NCBI GenBank assembly: GCA_964016885.1
Contig: OZ024757.1
Span: 6,758,001 to 6,822,000 of the forward strand
Reading direction: 5' to 3'
From: Eledone cirrhosa
Lineage: Eukaryota
DNA length: 64,000 nucleotides
In this document: positions 1 to 64,000 of the stretch, piece by piece
Layout: the number at the start of each line of letters is the position of its first letter
How positions within the stretch are numbered: the first letter of the stretch is position 1
Made by a program: the position numbers and the translations under genes
Notes under the pieces: generated by a model
Told to the model about the DNA's origin: nothing
Databases searched by the model: none
The model's input: only the letters and a program-made list of their open reading frames with translations

Positions 1-2348
1 ATGGCTGTGGAGGCACTCCTAGTCAAACGTAAACAAGGTATGGAGCGTTTACGCTTCGCGATTTTGTTTACGTTTGACTAGGTGTGCCTCCACAGCCACA
101 ACTCTTGATGTTACGGAGATATCTTGCTGAAATTCATACCACCCACAGCCAATGAGTGTCCGCACATGTACTTCTAATTACACATCGATCCGTCAACATC
201 CGGCCGGCCCACGATCGACGCATAGGGCCGGATGGCCCGTTTTCAGTGAATTTTCACCGGAATCGATCTGTAATTACTGGTACATGTGCGGACACTCATT
301 GGCTGTGTGTGGTGTGATTTTCGAGAAAAACTGCCCATGCTAAATGAGGCAGCTGAAGTCCGCCGGCGAATGGTGTGCTTCGAAGAAAACGAATTCGAAA
401 ATGACTATTTGCCGGCGGAATCACCTTTTCGGTCCTGGTCCGGCCGGATCTTGCCGGATCGATCGGAAATTTGTGGACCATGTTCGGAAGGCCATTGTGC
501 ATGTGTCGTGAAAAAAAGATGTGTCGAAATCTTCTCGGAAAATTACGGATCGCCGGCGGAGATTGCCATTTCGATCGTGGGCCGGCCGGATCTTGTCGGA
601 TCGATTCGGACATATGTGCATCGTGTTCGCAAGGCCCTTGTCTATGTGTGGTGTGATTTTCATAAAGAAATTCCGAAAAACCCAGTTTTAAATCTGATTT
701 CGCCAAAGAATTTTGGGTAGCAGATCGGGTTGAAAGGTATCGTTTCAAGTCGATCTGAAAGTCTAAAATGGAATTCACTCGGTTAGCTAACTTTTGATAT
801 ATCGGAGATATCTTTCTGAAAATCACACCACACACTCCCAATGAGTGTCTGCACATGTACCAGTAATTACAGATGGATCCCACCACGGGCGGCTGGCCCA
901 CGATCGAAAAGGTTACTCCGCCTGCAAACGGTCATTTTCGAATTCGTTTTCTTCGAAGCACACCATTCGCCGGCGGACTTCAGCTGCCTCATTTAGCATG
1001 GGCAGCTTTTCTCGAAAATCACACCACACACAGCCAATGAGTGTCCGCACATGTACCAGTAATTACAGATGGATCACACCACGGGCGGCTGGCCCACGAT
1101 CGAAAAGGTTACTCCGCCTGCAAACGGTCATTTTCGAATTCGTTTTCTTCGAAGCACAACATTCACCGGCGGACTTCAGCTTCCTCATTTAGCATGGGCA
1201 GTTTTTCTCGAAAATCACACCACACACAGCAAATCTGTGTCCGCACATGTACCAGTAATTACAGATCGATTCCGGTGAAAATTCACCGAAAACGGGCCAT
1301 TCGGTCCTGTGCGTCGATCGTGGGCCGGCCGGATGTTGACGGATCGATGTGTAATTAGAAGTATATGTGCGGACACTCATTGGCTGTGCGTGGTATGCAT
1401 TTCAGCAAGATATCTCCGTAACATCAAGAGTTATGGCTGTGGAGGCACACCTAGTCAAACGTAAACAAGGTATGGAGCGTTTACGCTTCGCGATTTTGTT
1501 TACGTTTGACTAGGTGTGCCTCCACAGTCACAACTCTTGATGTTACGGAGATATCTTGCTGAAATTCATACCACCCACAGCCAATGAGTGTCCGCACATG
1601 TACCTCTAATTACACATCGATCCGTCAACATCCGGCCGGCCCACGATCGACGCATAGGGCCGGATGGCCCGTTTTCAGTGAATTTTCACCGGAATCGATC
1701 TGTAATTACTGGTACATGTGCGGACACTCATTGGCTGTGTGTGGTGTGATTTTCGAGAAAAACTGCCCATGCTAAATGAGGCAGCTGAAGTCCGCCGGCG
1801 AATCGTGTGCTTCGAAGAAAACTAATTCGAAAATGACCGCTTGCAGGCGGAGTAACCTTTTCGATCGTGGGCCAGCCGCCCGTGGTGGGATCCATCTGTA
1901 ATTACTGGTACATGTACGGACACTCATTGCCTGTGTGTGGTGTGATTTTCGAGAAAAACTGCCCATGCTAAATGAGGCAGCTGAAGTCCGCCGGCGAATG
2001 GTGTGCTTCGAAGAAAACGAATTCGAAAATGACTATTTGCCGGCGGAATCACCTTTTCGGTCCTGGTCCGGCCGGATCTTGCCGGATCGATCGGAAATTT
2101 GTGGACCATGTTCGGAAGGCCATTGTGCATGTGTGGTGAAAAAAAGTTGTGTCGAAATCTTCTCGGAAAATAACGGATCGCCGGCGGAGATTGCCATTTC
2201 GATCGTGGGCCGGCCGGATCTTGTCGGATCGATTCGGACATATGTGCATCGTGTTCGCAAGGCCCTTGTCTATGTGTGGTGTGATTTTCATAAAGAAATT
2301 CCGAAAAACCCAGTTTTAAATCTGATATCGCCAAAGAATTTTGGGTAT

Positions 2349-2385
2349 CAGATCGGGTTGAAAGGTATGGTTTCAAGTCGATCTG
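2349..2385. other. Hairpin at the outer (inter-unit) symmetry axis
   Basis: CAGATCGGGTTGAAA-GGTATGG-TTTCAAGTCGATCTG: 15-bp stem with 13 Watson-Crick pairs and a 7-nt loop, present at each inter-unit junction. Confidence 0.85.
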
Positions 2386-2468
2386 AAAGTCTAAAATGGA
2401 ATTCACTCGGTTAGCTAACTTTTGATATATCGGAGATATCTTTCTGAAAATCACACCACACACTCCCA

Positions 2469-2620
2469 ATGAGTGTCTGCACATGTACCAGTAATTACAG
2501 ATGGATCCCACCACGGGCGGCCGGCCCACGATCGAAAAGGTTACTCCGAAGCACACCATTCGCCGGCGGACTTCATTTAGCATGGGCAGTTTTTCTTGAA
2601 GATCACACCACACACAGCCA
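2469..2620 (+). repeat. 152-bp deletion derivative of the 196-bp monomer
   Basis: Lacks 35 bp (TTACTCCG^AAGCAC) and 9 bp (GACTTCA^TTTAG) relative to the 196-mer; 196-44=152. Confidence 0.95.
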
Positions 2621-3012
2621 ATGAGTGTCCGCACATGTACCAGTAATTACAGATGGATCCCACTACGGGCGGCTGGCCCACGATCGAAAAGGTTACTCCG
2701 CCTGCAAACGGTCATTTTCGAATTCGTTTTCTTCGAAGCACACCATTCGCCGGCGGACTTCAGCTGCCTCATTTAGCATGGGCAGCTTTTCTCGAAAATC
2801 ACACCACAAACAGCCAATGAGTGTCCGCACATGTACCAGTAATTACAGATGGATCACACCACGGGCGGCTGGCCCACGATCGAAAAGGTTACTCCGCCTG
2901 CAAACGGTCATTTTCGAATTCGTTTTCTTCGAAGCACACCATTCGCCGGCGGACTTCAGCTTCCTCATTTAGCATGGGCAGTTTTTCTCGAAAATCACAC
3001 CACACACTGCAA
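2621..3012 (+). repeat. Two 196-bp sub-repeat monomers, left arm
   Basis: The core ATGAGTGTCCGCACATGTACCAGTAATTACAG recurs at 2621 and 2817, and as a variant at 3013, giving a period of 196. Confidence 0.97.
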
Positions 3013-3183
3013 ATCTGTGTCCGCACATGTACCAGTAATTACAGACCGATTCCGGTGAAAATTCACCGAAAACGGGCCATTCGGTCCTGTGCGTCGATCG
3101 TGGGCCGGCCGGATGTTGACGGATCGATGTGTAATTAGAAGTACATGTGCGGACACTCATTGGCTGTGCGTGGTATGCATTTC
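2990..3183. repeat. Nested imperfect inverted repeat within each arm (~65-bp stems, ~65-bp loop)
   Basis: GAAAATCACACCAC...TGTCCGCACATGTACCAGTAATTACAG...TCCG (2990-3054) pairs with CGGATCGATGTGTAATTAGAAGTACATGTGCGGACA...GTGGTATGCATTTC (3120-3183). The mirror copy lies at about 3341-3534. The 5' side of the loop holds CGGTGAA-AA-TTCACCG. Confidence 0.9.
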
Positions 3184-3248
3184 AGCAAGATATCTCCGTA
3201 ACATCAAGAGTTATGGCTGTGGAGGCACACCTAGTCAAACGTAAACAA

Positions 3249-3275
3249 GGTATGGAGCGTTTACGCTTCGCGATT
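3249..3275 (+). other. 27-bp asymmetric central spacer containing a mini-hairpin
   Basis: GGTATGGAGCGTTTACGCTTCGCGATT contains AGCGT-TT-ACGCT, almost coaxial with the large palindrome. It has the same orientation in all 38 units. Confidence 0.95.
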
Positions 3276-12300: not shown

Positions 12301-14333
12301 GCAAATCTGTGTCCGCACATGTACCAGTAATTACAGATCGATTCCGGTGAAAATTCACCGAAAACGGGCCATTCGGCCCTGTGCGTCGATCGTGGGCCGG
12401 CCGGATGTTGACGGATCGATGTGTAATTAGAAGTATATGTGCGGACACTCATTGGCTGTGCGTGGTATGCATTTCAGCAAGATATCTCCGTAACATCAAG
12501 AGTTATGGCTGTGGAGGCACACCTAGTCAAACGTAAACAAGGTATGGAGCGTTTACGCTTCGCGATTTTGTTTACGTTTGACTAGGTGTGCCTCCACAGC
12601 CACAACTCTTGATGTTACGGAGATATCTTGCTGAAATTCATACCACCCACAGCCAATGAGTGTCCGCACATGTACTTCTAATTACACGTCGATCCGTCAA
12701 CATCCGGCCGGCCCACGATCGACGCATAGGGCCGGATGGCCCGTTTTCAGTGAATTTTCACCGGAAACGATCTGTAATTACTGGTACATGTGCGGACACT
12801 CATTGGCTGTGTGTGGTGTGATTTTCGAGAAAAACTGCCCATGCTAAATGAGGAAGCTGAAGTCCGCCGGCGAATGGTGTGCTTCGAAGAAAACTAATTC
12901 GAAAATGACCGCTTGCAGGCGGAGTAACCTTTTCGATCGTGGGCCAGCCGCCCGTGTTGGGATCCATCTGTAATTACTGGTACATGTGCGGACACACATT
13001 TGCTGTGTGTGGTGTGATTTTCAAGAAAAACTGCCCATGCTAAATGAGGAAGCTGAAGTCCGCCGGCGAATGGTGTGCTTCGAAGAAAACGAATTCGAAA
13101 ATGACTATTTGCCGGCGGAATCACCTTTTCGGTCCTGGTCCGGCCGGATCTTGCCGGATCGATCGGAAATTTGTGGACCATGTTCGGAAGGCCATTGTGC
13201 ATGTGTGGTGAAAAAAAGTTGTGTCGAAATCTTCTCGGAAAATAACGGATCGCCGGCGGAGATTGCCATTTCGATCGTGGGCCGGCCGGATCTTGTCGGA
13301 TCGATTCGGACATATGTGCATCGTGTTCGCAAGGCCATTGTCTATGTGTGGTGTGACTTTCATAAAGAAATTCCGAAAAACCCAGTTTTAAATCTGATTT
13401 CGCCAAAGAATTTTGGCTATCAGATCGGGTTGAAAGGTATGGTTTCAAGTCGATCTGAAAGTCTAAAATGGAATTCACTCGGTTAGCTAACTTTTGATAT
13501 ATCGGAGATATCTTTCTGAAAATCACACCACACACTCCCAATGAGTGTCTGCACATGTACCAGTAATTACAGATGGATCCCACCACGGGCGGCCGGCCCA
13601 CGATCGAAAAGGTTACTCCGAAGCACACCATTCGCCGGCGGACTTCATTTAGCATGGGCAGTTTTTCTTGAAGATCACACCACACACAGCCAATGAGTGT
13701 CCGCACATGTACCAGTAATTACAGATGGATCCCACTACGGGCGGCTGGCCCACGATCGAAAAGGTTACTCCGCCTGCAAACGGTCATTTTCGAATTCGTT
13801 TTCTTCGAAGCACACCATTCGCCGGCGGACTTCAGCTGCCTCATTTAGCATGGGCAGCTTTTCTCGAAAATCACACCACACACAGCCAATGAGTGTCCGC
13901 ACATGTACCAGTAATTACAGATGGATCACACCACGGGCGGCTGGCCCACGATCGAAAAGGTTACTCCGCCTGCAAACGGTCATTTTCGAATTCGTTTTCT
14001 TCGAAGCACACCATTCGCCGGCGGACTTCAGCTTCCTCATTTAGCATGGGCAGTTTTTCTCGAAAATCACACCACACACAGCAAATCTGTGTCCGCACAT
14101 GTACCAGTAATTACAGATCGATTCCGGTGAAAATTCACCGAAAACGGGCCATTCGGCCCTGTGCGTCGATCGTGGGCCGGCCGGATGTTGACGGATCGAT
14201 GTGTAATTAGAAGTATATGTGCGGACACTCATTGGCTGTGCGTGGTATGCATTTCAGCAAGATATCTCCGTAACATCAAGAGTTATGGCTGTGGAGGCAC
14301 ACCTAGTCAAACGTAAACAAGGTATGGAGCGTT

Positions 14334-17300
14334 TACGCTTCGCGATTTTGTTTACGTTTGACTAGGTGTGCCTCCACAGCCACAACTCTTGATGTTACGG
14401 AGATATCTTGCTGAAATTCATACCACCCACAGCCAATGAGTGTCCGCACATGTACTTCTAATTACACATCGATCCGTCAACATCCGGCCGGCCCACGATC
14501 GACGCATAGGGCCGGATGGCCCGTTTTCAGTGAATTTTCACCGGAATCGATCTGTAATTACTGGTACATGTGCGGACACTCATTGGCTGTGTGTGGTGTG
14601 ATTTTCGAGAAAAACTGCCCATGCTAAATGAGGAAGCTGAAGTCCGCCGGCGAATGGTGTGCTTCGAAGAAAACTAATTCGAAAATGACCGCTTGCAGGC
14701 GGAGTAACCTTTTCGATCGTGGGCCAGCCGCCCGTGTTGGGATCCATCTGTAATTACTGGTACATGTGCGGACACACATTTGCTGTGTGTGGTGTGATTT
14801 TCAAGAAAAACTGCCCATGCTAAATGAGGAAGCTGAAGTCCGCCGGCGAATGGTGTGCTTCGAAGAAAACGAATTCGAAAATGACTATTTGCCGGCGGAA
14901 TCACCTTTTCGGTCCTGGTCCGGCCGGATCTTGCCGGATCGATCGGAAATTTGTGGACCATGTTCGGAAGGCCATTGTGCATGTGTGGTGAAAAAAAGTT
15001 GTGTCGAAATCTTCTCGGAAAATAACGGATCGCCGGCGGAGATTGCCATTTCGATCGTGGGCCGGCCGGATCTTGTCGGATCGATTCGGACATATGTGCA
15101 TCGTGTTCGCAAGGCCATTGTCTATGTGTGGTGTGATTTTCATAAAGAAATTCCGAAAAACCCAGTTTTAAATCTGATTTCGCCAAAGAATTTTGGCTAT
15201 CAGATCGGGTTGAAAGGTATGGTTTCAAGTCGATCTGAAAGTCTAAAATGGAATTCACTCGGTTAGCTAACTTTTGATATATCGGAGATATCTTTCTGAA
15301 AATCACACCACACACTCCCAATGAGTGTCTGCACATGTACCAGTAATTACAGATGGATCCCACCACGGGCGGCCGGCCCACGATCGAAAAGGTTACTCCG
15401 CCTGCAAACGGTCATTTTCGAATTCGTTTTCTTCAGCTTCCTCATTTAGCATGGGCAGTTTTTCTCGAAAATCACACCACACACAGCAAATCTGTGTCCG
15501 CACATGTACCAGTAATTACAGACCGATTCCGGTGAAAATTCACCGAAAACGGGCCATTCGGTCCTGTGCGTCGATCGTGGGCCGGCCGGATGTTGACGGA
15601 TCGATGTGTAATTAGAAGTACATGTGCGGACACTCATTGGCTGTGCGTGGTATGCATTTCAGCAAGATATCTCCGTAACATCAAGAGTTATGGCTGTGGA
15701 GGCACACCTAGTCAAACGTAAACAAGGTATGGAGCGTTTACGCTTCGCGATTTTGTTTACGTTTGACTAGGTGTGCCTCCACAGCCACAACTCTTGATGT
15801 TACGGAGATATCTTGCTGAAATGCATACCACGCACAGCCAATGAGTGTCCGCACATGTACCAGTAATTACACATCGATCCGTCAACATGCGGCCGGCCTA
15901 CGATCGACGCATAGGGCCGGATGGCCCGTTTTCGGTGAATTTTCACCGGAATCGATCTGTAATTACTGGTACATGTGCGGACACTCATTTGCTGTGTGTG
16001 GTGTGATTTTCAAGAAAAACTGCCCATGCTAAATGAGGAAGCTGAAGTCCGCCGGCGAATGGTGTATTCGAAGAAAACGAATTCGAAAATGACTATTTGC
16101 CGGCGGAATCACCTTTTCGGTCCTGGTCCGGCCGGATCTTGCCGGATCGATCGGAAATTTATGGACCATGTTCGGAAGGCCATTGTGCATGTGTGGTGAA
16201 AAAAAGTTGTGTCGAAATCTTCTCGGAAAATAACGGATCGCCGGCGGAGATTGCCATTTCGATCGTGGGCCGGCCGGATCTTGTCGGATCGATTCGGACA
16301 TATGTGCATCGTGTTCGCAAGGCCCTTGTCTATGTGTGGTGTGATTTTCATAAAGAAATTCCGAAAAACCCAGTTTTAAATCTGATATCGCCAAAGAATT
16401 TTGGGTATCAGATCGGGTTGAAAGGTATGGTTTCAAGTCGATCTGAAAGTCTAAAATGGAATTCACTCGGTTAGCTAACTTTTGATATATCGGAGATATC
16501 TTTCTGAAAATCACACCACACACTCCCAATGAGTGTCTGCACATGTACCAGTAATTACAGATGGATCCCACCACGGGCGGCCGGCCCACGATCGAAAAGG
16601 TTACTCCGAAGCACACCATTCGCCGGCGGACTTCATTTAGCATGGGCAGTTTTTCTTGAAGATCACACCACACACAGCCAATGAGTGTCCGCACATGTAC
16701 CAGTAATTACAGATGGATCCCACTACGGGCGGCTGGCCCACGATCGAAAAGGTTACTCCGCCTGCAAACGGTCATTTTCGAATTCGTTTTCTTCGAAGCA
16801 CACCATTCGCCGGCGGACTTCAGCTGCCTCATTTAGCATGGGCAGCTTTTCTCGAAAATCACACCACAAACAGCCAATGAGTGTCCGCACATGTACCAGT
16901 AATTACAGATGGATCACACCACGGGCGGCTGGCCCACGATCGAAAAGGTTACTCCGCCTGCAAACGGTCATTTTCGAATTCGTTTTCTTCGAAGCACACC
17001 ATTCGCCGGCGGACTTCAGCTTCCTCATTTAGCATGGGCAGTTTTTCTCGAAAATCACACCACACACAGCAAATCTGTGTCCGCACATGTACCAGTAATT
17101 ACAGATCGATTCCGGTGAAAATTCACCGAAAACGGGCCATTCGGCCCTGTGCGTCGATCGTGGGCCGGCCGGATGTTGACGGATCGATGTGTAATTAGAA
17201 GTATATGTGCGGACACTCATTGGCTGTGCGTGGTATGCATTTCAGCAAGATATCTCCGTAACATCAAGAGTTATGGCTGTGGAGGCACACCTAGTCAAAC

Positions 17301-20300
17301 GTAAACAAGGTATGGAGCGTTTACGCTTCGCGATTTTGTTTACGTTTGACTAGGTGTGCCTCCACAGCCACAACTCTTGATGTTACGGAGATATCTTGCT
17401 GAAATTCATACCACCCACAGCCAATGAGTGTCCGCATATGTACTTCTAATTACACATCGATCCGTCAACATCCGGCCGGCCCACGATCGACGCATAGGGC
17501 CGGATGGCCCGTTTTCAGTGAATTTTCACCGGAATCGATCTGTAATTACTGGTACATGTGCGGACACTCATTGGCTGTGTGTGGTGTGATTTTCGAGAAA
17601 AACTGCCCATGCTAAATGAGGAAGCTGAAGTCCGCCGGCGAATGGTGTGCTTCGAAGAAAACTAATTCGAAAATGACCGCTTGCAGGCGGAGTAACCTTT
17701 TCGATCGTGGGCCAGCCGCCCGTGTTGGGATCCATCTGTAATTACTGGTACATGTGCGGACACACATTTGCTGTGTGTGGTGTGATTTTCAAGAAAAACT
17801 GCCCATGCTAAATGAGGAAGCTGAAGTCCGCCGGCGAATGGTGTGCTTCGAAGAAAACGAATTCGAAAATGACTATTTGCCGGCGGAATCACCTTTTCGG
17901 TCCTGGTCCGGCCGGATCTTGCCGGATCGATCGGAAATTTGTGGACCATGTTCGGAAGGCCATTGTGCATGTGTGGTGAAAAAAAGTTGTGTCGAAATCT
18001 TCTCGGAAAATAACGGATCGCCGGCGGAGATTGCCATTTCGATCGTGGGCCGGCCGGATCTTGTCGGATCGATTCGGACATATGTGCATCGTGTTCGCAA
18101 GGCCATTGTCTATGTGTGGTGTGATTTTCATAAAGAAATTCCGAAAAACCCAGTTTTAAATCTGATTTCGCCAAAGAATTTTGGCTATCAGATCGGGTTG
18201 AAAGGTATGGTTTCAAGTCGATCTGAAAGTCTAAAATGGAATTCACTCGGTTAGCTAACTTTTGATATATCGGAGATATCTTTCTGAAAATCACACCACA
18301 CACTCCCAATGAGTGTCTGCACATGTACCAGTAATTACAGATGGATCCCACCACGGGCGGCCGGCCCACGATCGAAAAGGTTACTCCGAAGCACACCATT
18401 CGCCGGCGGACTTCATTTAGCATGGGCAGTTTTTCTTGAAGATCACACCACACACAGCCAATGAGTGTCCGCACATGTACCAGTAATTACAGATGGATCC
18501 CACTACGGGCGGCTGGCCCACGATCGAAAAGGTTACTCCGCCTGCAAACGGTCATTTTCGAATTCGTTTTCTTCAGCTTCCTCATTTAGCATGGGCAGTT
18601 TTTCTCGAAAATCACACCACACACAGCAAATCTGTGTCCGCACATGTACCAGTAATTACAGACCGATTCCGGTGAAAATTCACCGAAAACGGGCCATTCG
18701 GTCCTGTGCGTCGATCGTGGGCCGGCCGGATGTTGACGGATCGATGTGTAATTAAAAGTACATGTGCGGACACCCATTGGCTGTGCGTGGTATGCATTTC
18801 AGCAAGATATCTCCGTAACATCAAGAGTTATGGCTGTGGAGGCACACCTAGTCAAACGTAAACAAGGTATGGAGCGTTTACGCTTCGCGATTTTGTTTAC
18901 GTTTGACTAGGTGTGCCTCCACAGCCACAACTCTTGATGTTACGGAGATATCTTGCTGAAATGCATACCACGCACAGCCAATGAGTGTCCGCACATGTAC
19001 CAGTAATTACACATCGATCCGTCAACATGCGGCCGGCCTACGATCGACGCATAGGGCCGGATGGCCCGTTTTCGGTGAATTTTCACCGGAATCGATCTGT
19101 AATTACTGGTACATGTGCGGACACTCATTTGCTGTGTGTGGTGTGATTTTCAAGAAAAACTGCCCATGCTAAATGAGGAAGCTGAAGTCCGCCGGCGAAT
19201 GGTGTATTCGAAGAAAACGAATTCGAAAATGACTATTTGCCGGCGGAATCACCTTTTCGGTCCTGGTCCGGCCGGATCTTGCCGGATCGATCGGAAATTT
19301 ATGGACCATGTTCGGAAGGCCATTGTGCATGTGTGGTGAAAAAAAGTTGTGTCGAAATCTTCTCGGAAAATAACGGATCGCCGGCGGAGATTGCCATTTC
19401 CATCGTGGGCCGGCCGGATCTTGTCGGATCGATTCGGACATATGTGCATCGTGTTCGCAAGGCCCTTGTCTATGTGTGGTGTGATTTTCATAAAGAAATT
19501 CCGAAAAACCCAGTTTTAAATCTGATATCGCCAAAGAATTTTGGGTATCAGATCGGGTTGAAAGGTATGGTTTCAAGTCGATCTGAAAGTCTAAAATGGA
19601 ATTCACTCGGTTAGCTAACTTTTGATATATCGGAGATATCTTTCTGAAAATCACACCACACACTCCCAATGAGTGTCTGCACATGTACCAGTAATTACAG
19701 ATGGATCCCACCACGGGCGGCCGGCCCACGATCGAAAAGGTTACTCCGAAGCACACCATTCGCCGGCGGACTTCATTTAGCATGGGCAGTTTTTCTTGAA
19801 GATCACACCACACACAGCCAATGAGTGTCCGCACATGTACCAGTAATTACAGATGGATCCCACTACGGGCGGCTGGCCCACGATCGAAAAGGTTACTCCG
19901 CCTGCAAACGGTCATTTTCGAATTCGTTTTCTTCGAAGCACACCATTCGCCGGCGGACTTCAGCTGCCTCATTTAGCATGGGCAGCTTTTCTCGAAAATC
20001 ACACCACAAACAGCCAATGAGTGTCCGCACATGTACCAGTAATTACAGATGGATCACACCACGGGCGGCTGGCCCACGATCGAAAAGGTTACTCCGCCTG
20101 CAAACGGTCATTTTCGAATTCGTTTTCTTCGAAGCACACCATTCGCCGGCGGACTTCAGCTTCCTCATTTAGCATGGGCAGTTTTTCTCGAAAATCACAC
20201 CACACACAGCAAATCTGTGTCCGCACATGTACCAGTAATTACAGATCGATTCCGGTGAGAATTCACCGAAAACGGGCCATTCGGCCCTGTGCGTCGATCG

Positions 20301-23300
20301 TGGGCCGGCCGGATGTTGACGGATCGATGTGTAATTAGAAGTATATGTGCGGACACTCATTGGCTGTGCGTGGTATGCATTTCAGCAAGATATCTCCGTA
20401 ACATCAAGAGTTATGGCTGTGGAGGCACACCTAGTCAAACGTAAACAAGGTATGGAGCGTTTACGCTTCGCGATTTTGTTTACGTTTGACTAGGTGTGCC
20501 TCCACAGCCACCACTCTTGATGTTACGGAGATATCTTGCTGAAATTCATACCACCCACAGCCAATGAGTGTCCGCACATGTACTTCTAATTACACATCGA
20601 TCCGTCAACATCCGGCCGGCCCACGATCGACGCATAGGGCCGGATGGCCCGTTTTCAGTGAATTTTCACCGGAATCGATCTGTAATTACTGGTACATGTG
20701 CGGACACTCATTGGCTGTGTGTGGTGTGATTTTCGAGAAAAACTGCCCATGCTAAATGAGGAAGCTGAAGTCCGCCGGCGAATGGTGTGCTTCGAAGAAA
20801 ACTAATTCGAAAATGACCGCTTGCAGGCGGAGTAACCTTTTCGATCGTGGGCCAGCCGCCCGTGTTGGGATCCATCTGTAATTACTGGTACATGTGCGGA
20901 CACACATTTGCTGTGTGTGGTGTGATTTTCAAGAAAAACTGCCCATGCTAAATGAGGAAGCTGAAGTCCGCCGGCGAATGGTGTGCTTCGAAGAAAACGA
21001 ATTCGAAAATGACTATTTGCCGGCGGAATCACCTTTTCGGTCCTGGTCCGGCCGGATCTTGCCGGATCGATCGGAAATTTGTGGACCATGTTCGGAAGGC
21101 CATTGTGCATGTGTGGTGAAAAAAAGTTGTGTCGAAATCTTCTCGGAAAATAACGGATCGCCGGCGGAGATTGCCATTTCGATCGTGGGCCGGCCGGATC
21201 TTGTCGGATCGATTCGGACATATGTGCATCGTGTTCGCAAGGCCATTGTCTATGTGTGGTGTGATTTTCATAAAGAAATTCCGAAAAACCCAGTTTTAAA
21301 TCTGATTTCGCCAAAGAATTTTGGCTATCAGATCGGGTTGAAAGGTATGGTTTCAAGTCGATCTGAAAGTCTAAAATGGAATTCACTCGGTTAGCTAACT
21401 TTTGATATATCGGAGATATCTTTCTGAAAATCACACCACACACTCCCAATGAGTGTCTGCACATGTACCAGTAATTACAGATGGATCCCACCACGGGCGG
21501 CCGGCCCACGATCGAAAAGGTTACTCCGCCTGCAAACGGTCATTTTCGAATTCGTTTTCTTCAGCTTCCTCATTTAGCATGGGCAGTTTTTCTCGAAAAT
21601 CACACCACACACAGCAAATCTGTGTCCGCACATGTACCAGTAATTACAGACCGATTCCGGTGAAAATTCACCGAAAACGGGCCATTCGGTCCTGTGCGTC
21701 GATCGTGGGCCGGCCGGATGTTGACGGATCGATGTGTAATTAAAAGTACATGTGCGGACACTCATTGGCTGTGCGTGGTATGCATTTCAGCAAGATATCT
21801 CCGTAACATCAAGAGTTATGGCTGTGGAGGCACACCTAGTCAAACGTAAACAAGGTATGGAGCGTTTACGCTTCGCGATTTTGTTTACGTTTGACTAGGT
21901 GTGCCTCCACAGCCACAACTCTTGATGTTACGGAGATATCTTGCTGAAATGCATACCACGCACAGCCAATGAGTGTCCGCACATGTACCAGTAATTACAC
22001 ATCGATCCGTCAACATGCGGCCGGCCTACGATCGACGCATAGGGCCGGATGGCCCGTTTTCGGTGAATTTTCCCCGGAATCGATCTGTAATTACTGGTAC
22101 ATGTGCGGACACTCATTTGCTGTGTGTGGTGTGATTTTCAAGAAAAACTGCCCATGCTAAATGAGGAAGCTGAAGTCCGCCGGCGAATGGTGTATTCGAA
22201 GAAAACGAATTCGAAAATGACTATTTGCCGGCGGAATCACCTTTTCGGTCCTGGTCCGGCCGGATCTTGCCGGATCGATCGGAAATTTATGGACCATGTT
22301 CGGAAGGCCATTGTGCATGTGTGGTGAAAAAAAGTTGTGTCGAAATCTTCTCGGAAAATAACGGATCGCCGGCGGAGATTGCCATTTCGATCGTGGGCCG
22401 GCCGGATCTTGTCGGATCGATTCGGACATATGTGCATCGTGTTCGCAAGGCCCTTGTCTATGTGTGGTGTGATTTTCATAAAGAAATTCCGAAAAACCCA
22501 GTTTTAAATCTGATATCGCCAAAGAATTTTGGGTATCAGATCGGGTTGAAAGGTATGGTTTCAAGTCGATCTGAAAGTCTAAAATGGAATTCACTCGGTT
22601 AGCTAACTTTTGATATATCGGAGATATCTTTCTGAAAATCACACCACACACTCCCAATGAGTGTCTGCACATGTACCAGTAATTACAGATGGATCCCACC
22701 ACGGGCGGCCGGCCCACGATCGAAAAGGTTACTCCGAAGCACACCACTCGCCGGCGGACTTCATTTAGCATGGGCAGTTTTTCTTGAAGATCACACCACA
22801 CACAGCCAATGAGTGTCCGCACATGTACCAGTAATTACAGATGGATCCCACTACGGGCGGCTGGCCCACGATCGAAAAGGTTACTCCGCCTGCAAACGGT
22901 CATTTTCGAATTCGTTTTCTTCGAAGCACACCATTCGCCGGCGGACTTCAGCTGCCTCATTTAGCATGGGCAGCTTTTCTCGAAAATCACACCACAAACA
23001 GCCAATGAGTGTCCGCACATGTACCAGTAATTACAGATGGATCACACCACGGGCGGCTGGCCCACGATCGAAAAGGTTACTCCGCCTGCAAACGGTCATT
23101 TTCGAATTCGTTTTCTTCGAAGCACACCATTCGCCGGCGGACTTCAGCTTCCTCATTTAGCATGGGCAGTTTTTCTCGAAAATCACACCACACACAGCAA
23201 ATCTGTGTCCGCACATGTACCAGTAATTACAGATCGATTCCGGTGAAAATTCACCGAAAACGGGCCATTCGGCCCTGTGCGTCGATCGTGGGCCGGCCGG

Positions 23301-26300
23301 ATGTTGACGGATCGATGTGTAATTAGAAGTATATGTGCGGACACTCATTGGCTGTGCGTGGTATGCATTTCAGCAAGATATCTCCGTAACATCAAGAGTT
23401 ATGGCTGTGGAGGCACACCTAGTCAAACGTAAACAAGGTATGGAGCGTTTACGCTTCGCGATTTTGTTTACGTTTGACTAGGTGTGCCTCCACAGCCACA
23501 ACTCTTGATGTTACGGAGATATCTTGCTGAAATTCATACCACCCACAGCCAATGAGTGTCCGCATATGTACTTCTAATTACACATCGATCCGTCAACATC
23601 CGGCCGGCCCACGATCGACGCATAGGGCCGGATGGCCCGTTTTCAGTGAATTTTCACCGGAATCGATCTGTAATTACTGGTACATGTGCGGACACTCATT
23701 GGCTGTGTGTGGTGTGATTTTCGAGAAAAACTGCCCATGCTAAATGAGGAAGCTGAAGTCCGCCGGCGAATGGTGTGCTTCGAAGAAAACTAATTCGAAA
23801 ATGACCGCTTGCAGGCGGAGTAACCTTTTCGATCGTGGGCCAGCCGCCCGTGTTGGGATCCATCTGTAATTACTGGTACATGTGCGGACACACATTTGCT
23901 GTGTGTGGTGTGATTTTCAAGAAAAACTGCCCATGCTAAATGAGGAAGCTGAAGTCCGCCGGCGAATGGTGTGCTTCGAAGAAAACGAATTCGAAAATGA
24001 CTATTTGCCGGCGGAATCACCTTTTCGGTCCTGGTCCGGCCGGATCTTGCCGGATCGATCGGAAATTTGTGGACCATGTTCGGAAGGCCATTGTGCATGT
24101 GTGGTGAAAAAAAGTTGTGTCGAAATCTTCTCGGAAAATAACGGATCGCCGGCGGAGATTGCCATTTCGATCGTGGGCCGGCCGGATCTTGTCGGATCGA
24201 TTCGGACATATGTGCATCGTGTTCGCAAGGCCATTGTCTATGTGTGGTGTGATTTTCATAAAGAAATTCCGAAAAACCCAGTTTTAAATCTGATTTCGCC
24301 AAAGAATTTTGGCTATCAGATCGGGTTGAAAGGTATGGTTTCAAGTCGATCTGAAAGTCTAAAATGGAATTCACTCGGTTAGCTAACTTTTGATATATCG
24401 GAGATATCTTTCTGAAAATCACACCACACACTCCCAATGAGTGTCTGCACATGTACCAGTAATTACAGATGGATCCCACCACGGGCGGCCGGCCCACGAT
24501 CGAAAAGGTTACTCCGAAGCACACCATTCGCCGGCGGACTTCATTTAGCATGGGCAGTTTTTCTTGAAGATCACACCACACACAGCCAATGAGTGTCCGC
24601 ACATGTACCAGTAATTACAGATGGATCCCACTACGGGCGGCTGGCCCACGATCGAAAAGGTTACTCCGCCTGCAAACGGTCATTTTCGAATTCGTTTTCT
24701 TCAGCTTCCTCATTTAGCATGGGCAGTTTTTCTCGAAAATCACACCACACACAGCAAATCTGTGTCCGCACATGTACCAGTAATTACAGACCGATTCCGG
24801 TGAAAATTCACCGAAAACGGGCCATTCGGTCCTGTGCGTCGATCGTGGGCCGGCCGGATGTTGACGGATCGATGTGTAATTAAAAGTACATGTGCGGACA
24901 CTCATTGGCTGTGCGTGGTATGCATTTCAGCAAGATATCTCCGTAACATCAAGAGTTATGGCTGTGGAGGCACACCTAGTCAAACGTAAACAAGGTATGG
25001 AGCGTTTACGCTTCGCGATTTTGTTTACGTTTGACTAGGTGTGCCTCCACAGCCACAACTCTTGATGTTACGGAGATATCTTGCTGAAATGCATACCACG
25101 CACAGCCAATGAGTGTCCGCACATGTACCAGTAATTACACATCGATCCGTCAACATGCGGCCGGCCTACGATCGACGCATAGGGCCGGATGGCCCGTTTT
25201 CGGTGAATTTTCCCCGGAATCGATCTGTAATTACTGGTACATGTGCGGACACTCATTTGCTGTGTGTGGTGTGATTTTCAAGAAAAACTGCCCATGCTAA
25301 ATGAGGAAGCTGAAGTCCGCCGGCGAATGGTGTATTCGAAGAAAACGAATTCGAAAATGACTATTTGCCGGCGGAATCACCTTTTCGGTCCTGGTCCGGC
25401 CGGATCTTGCCGGATCGATCGGAAATTTATGGACCATGTTCGGAAGGCCATTGTGCATGTGTGGTGAAAAAAAGTTGTGTCGAAATCTTCTCGGAAAATA
25501 ACGGATCGCCGGCGGAGATTGCCATTTCGATCGTGGGCCGGCCGGATCTTGTCGGATCGATTCGGACATATGTGCATCGTGTTCGCAAGGCCCTTGTCTA
25601 TGTGTGGTGTGATTTTCATAAAGAAATTCCGAAAAACCCAGTTTTAAATCTGATATCGCCAAAGAATTTTGGCTATCAGATCGGGTTGAAAGGTATGGTT
25701 TCAAGTCGATCTGAAAGTCTAAAATGGAATTCACTCGGTTAGCTAACTTTTGATATATCGGAGATATCTTTCTGAAAATCACACCACACACTCCCAATGA
25801 GTGTCTGCACATGTACCAGTAATTACAGATGGATCCCACCACGGGCGGCCGGCCCACGATCGAAAAGGTTACTCCGAAGCACACCACTCGCCGGCGGACT
25901 TCATTTAGCATGGGCAGTTTTTCTTGAAGATCACACCACACACAGCCAATGAGTGTCCGCACATGTACCAGTAATTACAGATGGATCCCACTACGGGCGG
26001 CTGGCCCACGATCGAAAAGGTTACTCCGCCTGCAAACGGTCATTTTCGAATTCGTTTTCTTCGAAGCACACCATTCGCCGGCGGACTTCAGCTGCCTCAT
26101 TTAGCATGGGCAGCTTTTCTCGAAAATCACACCACAAACAGCCAATGAGTGTCCGCACATGTACCAGTAATTACAGATGGATCACACCACGGGCGGCTGG
26201 CCCACGATCGAAAAGGTTACTCCGCCTGCAAACGGTCATTTTCGAATTCGTTTTCTTCGAAGCACACCATTCGCCGGCGGACTTCAGCTTCCTCATTTAG

Positions 26301-29300
26301 CATGGGCAGTTTTTCTCGAAAATCACACCACACACAGCAAATCTGTGTCCGCACATGTACCAGTAATTACAGATCGATTCCGGTGAAAATTCACCGAAAA
26401 CGGGCCATTCGGCCCTGTGCGTCGATCGTGGGCCGGCCGGATGTTGACGGATCGATGTGTAATTAGAAGTATATGTGCGGACACTCATTGGCTGTGCGTG
26501 GTATGCATTTCAGCAAGATATCTCCGTAACATCAAGAGTTATGGCTGTGGAGGCACACCTAGTCAAACGTAAACAAGGTATGGAGCGTTTACGCTTCGCG
26601 ATTTTGTTTACGTTTGACTAGGTGTGCCTCCACAGCCACAACTCTTGATGTTACGGAGATATCTTGCTGAAATTCATACCACCCACAGCCAATGAGTGTC
26701 CGCATATGTACTTCTAATTACACATCGATCCGTCAACATCCGGCCGGCCCACGATCGACGCATAGGGCCGGATGGCCCGTTTTCAGTGAATTTTCACCGG
26801 AATCGATCTGTAATTACTGGTACATGTGCGGACACTCATTGGCTGTGTGTGGTGTGATTTTCGAGAAAAACTGCCCATGCTAAATGAGGAAGCTGAAGTC
26901 CGCCGGCGAATGGTGTGCTTCGAAGAAAACTAATTCGAAAATGACCGCTTGCAGGCGGAGTAACCTTTTCGATCGTGGGCCAGCCGCCCGTGTTGGGATC
27001 CATCTGTAATTACTGGTACATGTGCGGACACACATTTGCTGTGTGTGGTGTGATTTTCAAGAAAAACTGCCCATGCTAAATGAGGAAGCTGAAGTCCGCC
27101 GGCGAATGGTGTGCTTCGAAGAAAACGAATTCGAAAATGACTATTTGCCGGCGGAATCACCTTTTCGGTCCTGGTCCGGCCGGATCTTGCCGGATCGATC
27201 GGAAATTTGTGGACCATGTTCGGAAGGCCATTGTGCATGTGTGGTGAAAAAAAGTTGTGTCGAAATCTTCTCGGAAAATAACGGATCGCCGGCGGAGATT
27301 GCCATTTCGATCGTGGGCCGGCCGGATCTTGTCGGATCGATTCGGACATATGTGCATCGTGTTCGCAAGGCCATTGTCTATGTGTGGTGTGATTTTCATA
27401 AAGAAATTCCGAAAAACCCAGTTTTAAATCTGATTTCGCCAAAGAATTTTGGCTATCAGATCGGGTTGAAAGGTATGGTTTCAAGTCGATCTGAAAGTCT
27501 AAAATGGAATTCACTCGGTTAGCTAACTTTTGATATATCGGAGATATCTTTCTGAAAATCACACCACACACTCCCAATGAGTGTCTGCACATGTACCAGT
27601 AATTACAGATGGATCCCACCACGGGCGGCCGGCCCACGATCGAAAAGGTTACTCCGAAGCACACCATTCGCCGGCGGACTTCATTTAGCATGGGCAGTTT
27701 TTCTTGAAGATCACACCACACACAGCCAATGAGTGTCCGCACATGTACCAGTAATTACAGATGGATCCCACTACGGGCGGCTGGCCCACGATCGAAAAGG
27801 TTACTCCGCCTGCAAACGGTCATTTTCGAATTCGTTTTCTTCAGCTTCCTCATTTAGCATGGGCAGTTTTTCTCGAAAATCACACCACACACAGCAAATC
27901 TGTGTCCGCACATGTACCAGTAATTACAGACCGATTCCGGTGAAAATTCACCGAAAACGGGCCATTCGGTCCTGTGCGTCGATCGTGGGCCGGCCGGATG
28001 TTGACGGATCGATGTGTAATTAAAAGTACATGTGCGGACACTCATTGGCTGTGCGTGGTATGCATTTCAGCAAGATATCTCCGTAACATCAAGAGTTATG
28101 GCTGTGGAGGCACACCTAGTCAAACGTAAACAAGGTATGGAGCGTTTACGCTTCGCGATTTTGTTTACGTTTGACTAGGTGTGCCTCCACAGCCACAACT
28201 CTTGATGTTACGGAGATATCTTGCTGAAATGCATACCACGCACAGCCAATGAGTGTCCGCACATGTACCAGTAATTACACATCGATCCGTCAACATGCGG
28301 CCGGCCTACGATCGACGCATAGGGCCGGATGGCCCGTTTTCGGTGAATTTTCACCGGAATCGATCTGTAATTACTGGTACATGTGCGGACACTCATTTGC
28401 TGTGTGTGGTGTGATTTTCAAGAAAAACTGCCCATGCTAAATGAGGAAGCTGAAGTCCGCCGGCGAATGGTGTATTCGAAGAAAACGAATTCGAAAATGA
28501 CTATTTGCCGGCGGAATCACCTTTTCGGTCCTGGTCCGGCCGGATCTTGCCGGATCGATCGGAAATTTATGGACCATGTTCGGAAGGCCATTGTGCATGT
28601 GTGGTGAAAAAAAGTTGTGTCGAAATCTTCTCGGAAAATAACGGATCGCCGGCGGAGATTGCCATTTCGATCGTGGGCCGGCCGGATCTTGTCGGATCGA
28701 TTCGGACATATGTGCATCGTGTTCGCAAGGCCCTTGTCTATGTGTGGTGTGATTTTCATAAAGAAATTCCGAAAAACCCAGTTTTAAATCTGATATCGCC
28801 AAAGAATTTTGGCTATCAGATCGGGTTGAAAGGTATGGTTTCAAGTCGATCTGAAAGTCTAAAATGGAATTCACTCGGTTAGCTAACTTTTGATATATCG
28901 GAGATATCTTTCTGAAAATCACACCACACACTCCCAATGAGTGTCTGCACATGTACCAGTAATTACAGATGGATCCCACCACGGGCGGCCGGCCCACGAT
29001 CGAAAAGGTTACTCCGAAGCACACCATTCGCCGGCGGACTTCATTTAGCATGGGCAGTTTTTCTTGAAGATCACACCACACACAGCCAATGAGTGTCCGC
29101 ACATGTACCAGTAATTACAGATGGATCCCACTACGGGCGGCTGGCCCACGATCCAAAAGGTTACTCCGCCTGCAAACGGTCATTTTCGAATTCGTTTTCT
29201 TCGAAGCACACCATTCGCCGGCGGACTTCAGCTGCCTCATTTAGCATGGGCAGCTTTTCTCGAAAATCACACCACAAACAGCCAATGAGTGTCCGCACAT

Positions 29301-61000: not shown

Positions 61001-64000
61001 CATCCGGCCGGCCCACGATCGACGCATAGGGCCGGATGGCCCGTTTTCAGTGAATTTTCACCGGAATCGATCTGTAATTACTGGTACATGTGCGGACACT
61101 CATTGGCTGTGTGTGGTGTGATTTTCGAGAAAAACTGCCCATGCTAAATGAGGCAGCTGAAGTCCGCCGGCGAATCGTGTGCTTCGAAGAAAACTAATTC
61201 GAAAATGACCGCTTGCAGGCGGAGTAACCTTTTCGATCGTGGGCCAGCCGCCCCTGTTGGGATCCATCTGTAATTACTGGTACATGTGCGGACACACATT
61301 TGCTGTGTGTGGTGTGATTTTCAAGAAAAACTGCCCATGCTAAATGAGGAAGCTGAAGTCCGCCGGCGAATGGTGTGCTTCGAAGAAAACGAATTCGAAA
61401 ATGACTATTTGCCGGCGGAATCACCTTTTCGGTCCTGGTCCGGCCGGATCTTGCCGGATCGATCGGAAATTTGTGGACCATGTTCGGAAGGCCATTGTGC
61501 ATGTGTGGTGAAAAAAATTTGTGTCGAAATCTTCTCGGAAAATAACGGATCGCCGGCGGAGATTGCCATTTCGATCGTGGGCCGGCCGGATCTTGTCGGA
61601 TCGATTCGGACATATGTGCATCGTGTTCGCAAGGCCCTTGTCTATGTGTGGTGTGATTTTCATAAAGAAATTCCGAAAAACCCAGTTTTAAATCTGATTT
61701 CGCCAAAGAATTTTGGCTATCAGATCGGGTTGAAAGGTATGGTTTCAGGTCGATCTGAAAGTCTAAAATGGAATTCACTCGGTTAGCTAACTTTTGATAT
61801 ATCGGAGATATCTTTCTGAAAATCACACCACACACTCCCAATGAGTGTCTGCACATGTACCAGTAATTACAGATGGATCCCACCACGGGCGGCCGGCCCA
61901 CGATCGAAAAGGTTACTCCGAAGCACACCATTCGCCGGCGGACTTCATTTAGCATGGGCAGTTTTTCTTGAAGATCACACCACACACAGCCAATGAGTGT
62001 CCGCACATGTACCAGTAATTACAGATGGATCCCACTACGGGCGGCTGGCCCACGATCGAAAAGGTAACTCCGCCTGCAAACGGTCATTTTCGAATTCGTT
62101 TTCTTCGAAGCACACCATTCGCCGGCGGACTTCAGCTGCCTCATTTAGCATGGGCAGTTTTTCTCGAAAATCACACCACACACAGCCAATGAGTGTCCGC
62201 ACATGTACCAGTAATTACAGATCGATTCCGGTGAAAATTCACTGAAAACGGGCCATTCGGCCCTGTGCGTCGATCGTGGGCCGGCCGGATGTTGACGGAT
62301 CGATGTGTACTTAGAAGTACATGTGCGGACACTCATTGGCTGTGCGTGGTATGCATTTGAGCAAGATATCTCCGTAACATGAAGAGTTATGGCTGTGGAG
62401 GCACACCTAGTCAAACGTAAACAAGGTCTGGAGCGTTTACGCTTCGCGATTTTGTTTACGTTTGACTAGGTGTGCCTCCACATCCACAACTCTTGATGTT
62501 ACGGAGATATCTTGCTGAAATGCATACCACGCACAGCCAATGAGTGTCCGCACATGTACCAGTAAGTACACATCGATCCGTCAACATGCGGCCGGCCTAC
62601 GATCGACGCATAGGGCCGGATGGCCCGTTTTCGGTGAATTTTCACCGGAATCGATCTGTAATTACTGGTACATGTGCGGACACTCATTTGCTGTGTGTGG
62701 TGTGATTTTCAAGAAAAACTGCCCATGCTAAATGAGGAAGCTGAAGTCCGCCGGCGAATGGTGTGCTTCGAAGAAAACTAATTCGAAAATGACCGTTTGC
62801 AGGCGGAGTAACTTTTTCGATCGTGGGCCAGCCGCCCGTGGTGGGATCCATCTGTAATTACTGGTACATGTGCGGACACTCATTGGCTGTGTGTGGTGTG
62901 ATTTTCGAGAAAAACTGCCCATGCTAAATGAGGCAGCTGAAGTCCGCCGGCGAATCGTGTGCTTCGAAGAAAACTAATTCGAAAATGACCGCTTGCAGGC
63001 GGAGTAACCTTTTCGAATCATGGGCCAGCCGCCCCTGTTGGGATCCATCTGTAATTACTGGTACATGTGCGGACACACATTTGCTGTGTGTGGTGTGATT
63101 TTCAAGAAAAACTGCCCATGCTAAATGAGGAAGCTGAAGTCCGCCGGCGAATGGTGTGCTTCGAAGAAAACGAATTCGAAAATGACTATTTGCCGGCGGA
63201 ATCACCTTTTCGGTCCTGGTCCGGCCGGATCTTGCCGGATCGATCGGAAATTTGTGGACCATGTTCGGAAGGCCATTGTGCATGTGTGGTGAAAAAACGT
63301 TGTGTCGAAATCTTCTCGGAAAATAACGGATCGACGGCGGAGATTGCCATTTCGATCGTGGGCCGGCCGGATCTTGTCGGATCGATTCGGACATATGTGC
63401 ATCGTGTTCGCAAGGCCCTTGTCTATGTGTGGTGTGATTTTCATAAAGAAATTCCGAAAAACCCAGTTTTAAATCTGATTTCGCCAAAGAATTTTGGCTA
63501 TCAGATCGGGTTGAAAGGTATGGTTTCTAGTCGATCTGAAAGTCTAAAATGGAATTCACTCGGTTAGCTAACTTTTGATATATCGGAGATATCTTTCTAA
63601 AAATCACACCATACACTCCCAATGAGTGTCTGCACATGTACCAGTAATGACAGATGGATCCCACCAAGGGCGGCCGGCCCACGATCGAAAAGGTTACTCC
63701 GAAGCACACCATTCGCCGGCGGACTTCATTTAACATGGGCAGTTTTTCTTGAAGATCACACCACACACAGCCAATGAGTGTCCGCAAATGTACCAGTAAT
63801 TACAGATGGATCCCACTACGGGCGGCTGGCCCACGATCGAAAAGGTAACTCCGCCTGCAAACGGTCATTTTCGAATTCGTTTTCTTCGAAGCACACCATT
63901 CGCCGGCGGACTACAGCTGCCTCATTTAGCATGGGCAGTTTTTCTCGAAAATCACACCACACACAGCCAATGAGTGTCCGCACATGTACCAGTAATTACA
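37100..64000. repeat. Second sequence sub-family domain of the array
   Basis: Spacer GGTCTGG with left-arm GTGTACTTAG and CACTGAAA at 12 of the last 15 axes (exceptions 43206, 53734, 60854). Never seen in the first 23 axes. Confidence 0.88.

What the first reader, a model, noticed from the sequence alone, without database searches (positions are those of the whole stretch)
1..64000. A macrosatellite whose every unit is a kilobase-scale palindrome (concatemer of foldback units)
Seen: 38 consecutive inverted repeats, with arms of about 540 bp in the standard unit and only a 27-bp spacer, so the 196-bp satellite monomers switch strand every few copies. Known: ordinary satellites are head-to-tail over long tracts, and long short-spacer palindromes are unstable because they form hairpins or cruciforms cleaved by Mre11/SbcCD-type nucleases. 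Inference: dozens kept in tandem suggest active maintenance or function, such as a dyad-rich centromeric or heterochromatic domain, or an amplified foldback transposon in transition to satellite DNA.
Basis: partly seen in the sequence, partly recalled or inferred. Interest (0 to 1): 0.8.

Follow-up and report, generated by a model that had tools for sequence, protein, structure and literature searches.

The report
Satellite DNA built of nested palindromes
This is a real tandem array of 1.4-2.0-kb repeat units, each a roughly 96%-perfect kilobase palindrome with three older mirror points inside it, likely built by repeated fold-back of an ordinary ~227-bp satellite; such palindromic satellites are known from flour beetles, and here one palindrome appears to have recently copied one arm onto the other.

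Summary
Observation confirmed: 38 dyads with a 27-bp spacer. Arms are 95-98% complementary over 538 bp at the 20 of 37 centres that stay in register that far, and shorter elsewhere. Two public runs from other studies hold arm-spacer-arm, so the junction is no assembly chimera.

The units are head-to-tail (38 of 38 spacers and linkers on +, ~98% alike): one ancestral palindrome copied many times, not 38 inversions. Each unit has four symmetry axes of different decay. Public contigs join the arm end directly to the 196-bp subrepeat core in a deeper-covered family. The arm end is therefore likely internal to a ~227-bp parent satellite, not a transposon terminus; no target-site duplication is seen.

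Arms do not generally co-evolve within a palindrome. One centre (36077) shows a 370-bp in-register arm-to-arm copy with a private allele.

The architecture is known from Tribolium (T. brevicornis 1061-bp satellite, TmSat2, TAUD2); no sequence match was found. Spacer and mismatches would blunt instability, so no function is needed to explain persistence. Centromere role is untested and the organism is unknown. Verdict: new variant of a known kind.

The parts
1..64000 (+). Head-to-tail array, 37 complete spacer-to-spacer units of 1405-1976 bp (1780 modal, 10 of 37) plus two partial ends; open at both window edges
   Evidence: a 677-bp core is 98.1% identical between units
1469..3248 (+). Model 1780-bp unit (spacer to next spacer)
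1469..1495 (+). 27-bp spacer at the main dyad; weakly self-complementary (4-6-bp stem, 4-nt loop); cut once per unit by NruI/BstUI
1496..2033 (+). Right arm, high-identity part (538 bp); continues at about 70% identity to 2138
1496..1594 (+). Block B (arm end); in a deeper-covered family of public contigs its start is joined directly to the end of block A
   Evidence: tables 5, 7, 8
1561..1754 (.). Secondary convergent dyad, axis about 1657.5, about 70% self-complementary; mirrored in the left arm (axis 3086.5)
1691..2233 (-). 196-bp subrepeats on the minus strand, increasingly diverged outwards; copy number varies between units
2234..2479 (+). Linker: a decayed palindrome, axis 2367, with diverged block-B-like flanks facing outwards
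   Evidence: 75 of 131 columns match own reverse complement; 0 of 500 shuffles
2348..2386 (.). 16-bp stem (2 mismatches), 7-nt loop, exactly on the linker axis
2480..3053 (+). 196-bp subrepeats on the plus strand (block A 2632-2760 plus block C 2761-2827), the first with an internal deletion
2711..3248 (-). Left arm of the next dyad, high-identity part (538 bp)
35539..35908 (-). Left (donor-type) tract of the 370-bp perfect arm match at centre 36077
36272..36641 (+). Right tract carrying left-arm alleles and the allele private to its partner: likely conversion recipient
14321..34297 (+). Second-order repeats: 3140-bp unit pairs (1557+1583) differing by 2-6 bases, and a 6128-bp four-unit block duplicated with 10 differences

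Best explanation
The window is a head-to-tail satellite array whose 1.4-2.0-kb unit has four symmetry axes and was likely assembled by successive fold-back (inverted) duplications of a ~227-bp parent satellite, then likely amplified as a block by unequal exchange or rolling-circle copying. Steps: (1) SHOWN: every part of the unit except the spacer, the ~45-bp tail of the inner arm and the linker core is a piece of blocks A, B or C, in either orientation. (2) INFERRED: in the parent family B follows A head-to-tail (A 129 + B ~98 bp); the 196-bp subrepeat is a derivative in which most of B is replaced. (3) SHOWN: both arms contain the same internal convergent dyad. INFERRED: that inversion came first and the kilobase palindrome arose later by fold-back near the A/B boundary, leaving a relic hairpin as the 'spacer'; the linker is an older, more decayed fold-back. 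(4) SHOWN: units are copied head-to-tail, singly and as two- and four-unit blocks, with gain or loss of 196-bp subrepeats. (5) INFERRED: the 27-bp asymmetric centre and about 4-5% arm mismatch make cruciform breakage rare enough for passive persistence, while occasional fold-back pairing lets one arm overwrite the other (one clear case), slowing arm divergence but leaving the centre free to decay.
For: Four dyad axes are the top four of an ungapped 100-pair scan over one unit: 87, 65, 58 and 46 pairs of 100 against a mean of 24.9, sd 4.7. Block map of all 37 units. X7 contig 23 joins window 3384->3275 (minus) straight into 3766 onward (plus), and X1 loose ends agree; 3764-3798 is the reverse complement of the A end, 35 of 35. 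Variants of that family have summed depth about 3-11 times that of the linker (X1 240,582 vs 73,468; X4 375 vs 33; X7 37.7 vs 5.6; rough, not copy number). Left-left 4.5, right-right 6.5, partner 12.0, non-partner 11.9 differences per 250 bp; permutation 3086 of 5000. Block duplications. Conversion: the arms at centre 36077 match perfectly over positions 169-538, where the other 19 in-register centres differ at 12-19 sites. That right tract differs by 0 from its partner, by at least 1 from any other left arm and by at least 9 from any other right arm, and shares one allele with its partner alone; 0 of 1369 non-partner pairs reach 370 bp. In block B the arms differ by 2.7 of 99, against 8 of 84 and 15 of 110 for the related family. 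A spacer variant in X1 and X4 (T>A at 3261) makes its centre a perfect 12-bp palindrome. T. freemani inversion points are likewise truncated monomers back to back with 9-27-bp loops (PMC12581902).
Against: Long arrays of the parent monomer were not seen; its length and tandem order rest on one listed 149-bp contig plus loose ends. The spacer's self-complementarity is weak (131 and 640 of 5000 shuffles as good; folding z -0.3 to -1.0), and its likeness to the A end is marginal (132-598 of 3000 shuffles). Conversion is clear at only 1 of 30 in-register centres, there is no array-wide partner signal, three left/right differences are fixed in the inner 250 bp, and a read or consensus artefact mirroring one arm cannot be excluded. 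Other mosaic arms (units 23-31, 33-37) could come from any 196-bp copy. Array ends, chromosome position and organism are unknown. The instability figures are from yeast Alu repeats.
Confidence: 0.7

Rival explanations
1. The unit, read from spacer to spacer, is a non-autonomous foldback (Mutator-like) transposon: long terminal inverted repeats with an outer unique domain and a variable number of internal ~200-bp repeats around a middle domain. Tandem copies put the tail repeat of one next to the head repeat of the next, with 27 bp of flank between.
For: The layout matches Tetris: flanking domain, variable ~220-bp tandem repeats partly homologous to it, middle domain, no ORF (PMC4079207; here). 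Subrepeat number varies per arm. Tandem transposons can seed satellites (PMC5932611).
Against: The would-be terminus is joined to the repeat core in a deeper-covered family. No 2-11-bp direct repeat flanks the element, and 27 bp exceeds the 8-10-bp duplications of Tetris and the 8 bp between tandem P or hobo elements. The 'middle domain' is itself a decayed palindrome of the same blocks. No transposase trace: 0 Pfam hits in the 4 open frames tested of the 16 listed.
Confidence: 0.15
2. The dyads are kept by selection because hairpins or cruciforms at the strand switches help specify or package centromeric or pericentromeric chromatin, as proposed for Tribolium macro-dyads. This is compatible with the origin given above and differs in why the array persists.
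For: Same proposal, untested, for T. madens and T. freemani. All 38 centres are intact, the 31-35 bp next to the spacer are perfectly paired, and spacer length is 27 in all window copies and in X4 and X7. The unit derives from what is likely a major satellite.
Against: The spacer (diversity 0.016) and the first 35 bp of the right arm (0.020) are no more conserved than the linker (0.009) or the arms (0.018-0.026); only the first 35 bp of the left arm are invariant. A 31-35-bp run without mismatch is unremarkable at about 5% divergence (roughly 0.2 by simple arithmetic). Arm lengths are freely broken by deletions (295-676 bp). Recent block duplication explains the uniformity.
Confidence: 0.12
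3. The alternating orientation is an artefact of whole-genome amplification, fold-back long reads or assembly.
For: Raw long reads were not examined. Hairpin templates can produce chimeric reads (general knowledge).
Against: Arms carry fixed left/right differences and class-specific haplotypes, which chimeric copying would not give. The arm-spacer-arm junction and a 446-bp linker piece at 99% identity occur in X4 and X7 from other studies, with their own spacer alleles.
Confidence: 0.03

Closest known systems
Tribolium brevicornis 1061-bp major satellite (Mravinac et al. 2005; seen only as cited in PMC13081366 and PMC12581902)
   Same: Kilobase monomer repeated in tandem, made of two long (~470 bp) inversely oriented subunits.
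   Different: Here the arms are 540-680 bp and are themselves built of 196-bp subrepeats, with four symmetry axes per unit. Its sequence was not compared.
Tribolium madens TmSat2/MAD2 (704 bp) with its parent TmSat1 (225 bp) (PMC13081366: passages, section 7 part 1, supplement search)
   Same: A minor complex satellite made wholly of subunits related to a major ~225-bp satellite, with ~300-bp imperfect inverted repeats giving a ~600-bp palindrome-like monomer.
   Different: TmSat1 consensus is strongly A+T-rich and none of 5 window 12-mers occurs in the one supplementary file held; this window is 48-49% G+C. TmSat2 subunits are 50-93% alike; these arms are 95-98%.
Tribolium audax TAUD2 and T. 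freemani TfSat01/TfSat03 inversion points (PMC12581902, passages)
   Same: About 700-bp inverted subrepeats (TAUD2); conserved inversion points made of truncated monomers back to back with 9-27-bp loops; a degenerate but conserved central region.
   Different: In T. freemani the inverted subarrays are kilobases long and irregular; here the switch is fixed into a regular 1.8-kb higher-order unit.
Tetris foldback transposon and TIR-220 satellite, Drosophila virilis (PMC4079207, passages)
   Same: Long inverted repeats holding a variable number of ~200-bp tandem repeats, no ORF.
   Different: Tetris copies are dispersed with 8-10-bp target-site duplications and the internal repeat is what amplified; here whole units are tandem and the arm end is internal to a related repeat.
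Human Y-chromosome palindromes P1-P8 (PMC7999016, passages)
   Same: Gene conversion between palindrome arms.
   Different: Those are large gene-bearing segmental duplications; here the palindrome is about 1.1-1.4 kb, non-coding and tandemly multiplied, and conversion is sporadic.

Membership tests
Complex satellites with long inverted subunits (TBREV / TmSat2 / TAUD2 type) | Long head-to-tail array of a large monomer | tested here: met
   37 complete units, 38 of 38 spacers and linkers on +
Complex satellites with long inverted subunits (TBREV / TmSat2 / TAUD2 type) | Monomer holds inverted subunits of several hundred bp | tested here: met
Complex satellites with long inverted subunits (TBREV / TmSat2 / TAUD2 type) | Monomer built from subunits related to a simpler, more abundant satellite | tested here: inconclusive
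   Subunit make-up shown; parent family inferred from contig joints and depth; its arrays not seen
Complex satellites with long inverted subunits (TBREV / TmSat2 / TAUD2 type) | (Peri)centromeric location | not testable with these tools
   No genome held; no ChIP or FISH data
Tribolium madens TmSat families (sequence membership) | Sequence similarity to the published consensus repeats | tested here: not met
   0 of 5 window 12-mers in the one supplementary file held; TmSat1 is A+T-rich. Other Tribolium species not compared
Foldback / Mutator-like transposons (Tetris, Galileo type) | Long modular terminal inverted repeats with internal tandem repeats around a middle domain | tested here: met
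   Unit read from spacer to spacer
Foldback / Mutator-like transposons (Tetris, Galileo type) | Target-site duplication of 8-11 bp | tested here: inconclusive
   No 2-11-bp direct repeat at the two spacer edges, but only tandem junctions are available; a double insertion leaves one copy of the site, and 27 bp is too long for that
Foldback / Mutator-like transposons (Tetris, Galileo type) | Arm end is a true terminus abutting varied flanks | tested here: not met
   In a related, deeper-covered family the arm end continues into block A. 9 of 42 loose ends were shown, so dispersed copies are not excluded
Foldback / Mutator-like transposons (Tetris, Galileo type) | Dispersed copies or an autonomous partner with transposase | not testable with these tools
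   No genome held; 0 Pfam hits in 4 frames
Known RNA families / hairpin RNA genes | Rfam match above gathering score | tested here: not met
   1400-5100: only MIR8562 at 21.7 bits against 211, E 0.68

The most novel reading that the evidence does not exclude
A satellite array that keeps its own symmetry: kilobase palindromes in every unit fold back often enough for arm-to-arm conversion, as on the Y chromosome, to hold the arms near 96% while the unpairable centre decays. Together with its ~227-bp parent the array would form dyad-rich (peri)centromeric chromatin in a G+C-rich, apparently non-Tribolium lineage. That would carry the macro-dyad idea beyond one beetle genus and give a defined locus, with a once-per-unit cutter, on which to test whether satellite hairpins form in vivo.
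Probability: 0.2. Interest if true: 0.7.

Novelty: new variant of a known kind. Interest (0 to 1): 0.42.

Why it matters
Long intra-monomer palindromes are called uncommon in satellites, with the main examples in Tribolium (PMC13081366). This is a further, sequence-unmatched case with high arm identity and a readable history of nested fold-backs. The converted arm at 36077, if confirmed in reads, is sequence evidence that opposite-strand copies in a satellite exchange in register across a dyad; one literature search for arm-to-arm conversion with satellite monomers listed only a Y-chromosome paper. It would not by itself show function. If only passive amplification is at work, the value is modest: a well-dissected example of how inversion points become fixed in higher-order repeats.

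Tried and rejected
No whole genome is held, so dispersed copies, array ends and parent arrays could not be searched. Pattern scans: genome contigs 1 hit, viral contigs 1 hit, metagenome contigs 0 then 12 hits; all 14 loci align only over the 19-43-bp seed region and are chance. No blastn match in phages or plasmids. Rfam: nothing real. Pfam: 0 of 4 frames; open frames are not conserved in length between units. No RNA holder was listed among runs; this says nothing on expression. Attempts to match a described satellite failed: six 14-mers in 0 papers, 'CEN237' (a recalled name) in 0 papers, Vaccinium VaccSat2 primers unlike the unit by eye only, cichlid 237-bp satellite 37.6% G+C and organised around 15-kb elements, Salicaceae and Meloidogyne passages not relevant, T. 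madens supplement. The distance table at the end used a faulty gap cost and was replaced; the mean monomer distances include out-of-register copies and were not used. Array-wide co-evolution of partner arms: rejected. A G.T bias suggesting an RNA hairpin on one strand: not seen in the arms (13 G.T/T.G against 9 A.C/C.A distinct sites). Methylation-type decay: not seen. Earlier findings of this scan: none by sequence, place or first word search; the 8 listed are short bacterial hairpins and do not bear on this.
Full report
Observation. The whole window is one uniform repeat of 47-49% G+C. A de novo search for inverted 16-mers finds 38 centres with a 27-nt gap. The spacer is present 38 times on the plus strand and never on the minus, in two alleles (26 and 12), and a linker probe hits 38 times, all plus. 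The 37 spacer-to-spacer units are 1405-1976 bp, 1780 in 10 of 37. Arms pair without gaps for 295-676 bp; at the 20 of 37 centres in register to position 538 they are 95.4-98.3% complementary, then usually fall to about 70%. Perfect pairing beside the spacer is 31-35 bp.

Not an artefact. One unit was found in 20 listed runs from 17 studies; I laid four. X4 and X7, from different studies, each hold an 87-bp contig made of 30 bp of arm, the spacer and 30 bp of the other arm, and a linker piece of 446 bp with 4-5 differences. X1 covers all 30 bins. X23 had no reads and is no test. Depth in X4 and X7 is low (33 and 5.6 on the linker), so these may be traces of the host's DNA in samples of other organisms or low-copy relatives; I cannot tell, and the many organism labels do not show wide distribution. 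Contigs prove the junction, not the long-range order. Fixed left/right differences at arm positions 36, 160 and 168 also argue against chimeric copying.

Anatomy. Using three blocks cut from the window (A 2632-2760, C 2761-2827, B 3276-3374), every unit reads: spacer, B>, partial A>, then <A<C subrepeats, linker, A>C> subrepeats, partial <A, <B. So orientation switches four times. An ungapped symmetry scan over one unit returns these four axes as its best four: 1482 (87 of 100 pairs), 1657.5 (65), 3086.5 (58) and 2367 (46), against 24.9 +/- 4.7. The linker aligns to its own reverse complement at 75 of 131 columns (0 of 500 shuffles) and carries a 16-bp stem with a 7-nt loop exactly on its axis. 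The two convergent axes are mirror copies of one junction, so that inversion predates the kilobase palindrome (inference). The unit is a palindrome of palindromes, with axes of different decay.

Parent satellite. One search shows variants with several times the summed depth of the linker. In that family the arm end differs in its outer ~25 bp, and an X7 contig of 149 bp runs from window 3384 down to 3275 and then straight into 3766 onward on the other strand; X1 loose ends at 3764 and 3223 agree. Window 3764-3798 is the reverse complement of the end of block A (35 of 35). So in that family A is followed directly by B, and B by A as in the inner arm: a circularly permuted monomer of about 227 bp (inference; its arrays were not seen; the tool warns that depth is no copy number). 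The arm end is thus internal to a related repeat and is unlikely to be a transposon end. The spacer may be a relic fold-back point: it is weakly self-complementary (131 and 640 of 5000 shuffles), a variant in X1 and X4 makes its centre a perfect 12-bp palindrome, and its halves faintly resemble the A end (132-598 of 3000 shuffles). This step is weakly supported. Short inverted repeats of 5-9 bp with 3-12-bp spacers can seed palindromic duplications in Mre11- or Sae2-deficient yeast (PMC7999016, passages).

How the array evolves. Over the inner 250 bp, left arms differ from each other by 4.5, right arms by 6.5, partners by 12.0 and non-partner left-right pairs by 11.9 (permutation 3086 of 5000). 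Units share a 677-bp core at 98.1%, change by whole 196-bp subrepeats or by deletions, and are duplicated in pairs and fours with 2-10 differences over 3.0-6.1 kb. This is ordinary head-to-tail turnover of one ancestral palindrome. The exception is centre 36077: its arms are identical over positions 169-538 (35539-35908 and 36272-36641), where the 19 other in-register centres differ at 12-19 sites. The right tract has the left-arm haplotype, matches its own partner exactly, differs from every other left arm by at least 1 and every other right arm by at least 9, and shares one allele with its partner alone, while its inner 168 bp are an ordinary right-arm type. I read this as in-register arm-to-arm gene conversion, 1 of 30 centres in register to position 446. 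Other mosaic arms hint at older exchange both ways but could come from any subrepeat. A read or consensus artefact is not excluded. In block B the arms differ by 2.7 of 99 but by 10-14% from the related family, which fits either a young inversion or an old one kept alike by conversion.

Is persistence a paradox? In yeast, widening the spacer of an Alu inverted repeat from 12 to 20 bp lowers recombination about 40-fold, and 94% identity lowers rearrangements about 15-fold (PMC10164571, passages). With 27 bp and about 4-5% mismatch these dyads would be far less fragile than perfect palindromes (inference across species). The spacer and adjacent right arm are no more conserved than the linker, and arms are broken by deletions without loss of the unit. 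Nothing here requires selection, though nothing excludes it.

Comparison with what is known. T. brevicornis has a 1061-bp satellite with ~470-bp inverted subunits, T. madens TmSat2 a ~600-bp palindrome-like monomer built from subunits related to the 225-bp major satellite, and T. audax TAUD2 ~700-bp inverted subrepeats; T. freemani inversion points are truncated monomers back to back with 9-27-bp loops (PMC13081366: passages, section 7 part 1 and a search of the one supplementary file held; PMC12581902: passages; the original T. brevicornis and T. audax papers were not read). Function there is hypothesised, not shown. The window works like these but is not a T. madens family by sequence. It resembles the foldback element Tetris in layout (PMC4079207, passages) but fails the terminus test and shows no target-site duplication; dispersed copies could not be sought. 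Also seen as passages only: PMC5932611, PMC8122249, PMC13652916, PMC7290377, PMC12046899, PMC13404089. Ten literature searches found no description of this sequence; the library lacks most subscription papers, and repeat databases and most supplements were not searchable, so it may be catalogued elsewhere.

Verdict. Real, and more intricate than reported, but of a known kind. Best reading (0.7): nested fold-back higher-order satellite, passively amplified, with sporadic arm-to-arm conversion. Rivals: tandem foldback transposon (0.15), selected centromeric dyads (0.12), artefact (0.03). The organism is unknown; a flowering-plant origin is only my impression from recalled motif style and is not supported by any search. 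Interest 0.42.

Noticed in passing
window 2364-2370 and 1469-1475: The 7-nt loop of the linker hairpin is the same as the first 7 bases of the commoner spacer allele in the window; the laid runs X1, X4 and X7 show only the other base at that position, so the match may be chance or a local conversion.
   Followed up: partly
window 3249-3275 in runs X1, X4, X7: At least three spacer alleles exist, all 27 bp. Spacer depth is about a third to a half of linker depth in X1 and a fifth in X4, which could be hairpin drop-out or units with other centres.
   Followed up: partly
whole window: CpG observed/expected is 1.16 and only 5 of 14 C>T polymorphisms lie at CG or CHG, against 146 of 300 available cytosines: no sign of methylation-driven decay, unusual if this were a heavily methylated satellite; numbers are small.
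   Followed up: partly
window 37661-62451: The C spacer allele (12 copies) is confined to units from 37661 onward and travels with its own arm haplotypes: a regional subfamily that begins one unit after the converted palindrome at 36077.
   Followed up: partly
window 29717-31157: A 1441-bp unit with a rearranged right arm that lacks the outer diverged subrepeats and carries a longer reversed block-B piece before the linker.
   Followed up: no
window 1675-1692 and its left-arm mirror: A short hairpin (5-7-bp stem depending on the copy, 2-nt loop) sits about 26 bp off the convergent dyad axis, at the point where the subrepeats reverse; read by eye.
   Followed up: no
one search run list: Parts of the unit occur in runs under 17 coded organism labels plus a wastewater metagenome, often at small share; either a genus-wide satellite or carry-over of a very abundant repeat.
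   Followed up: partly
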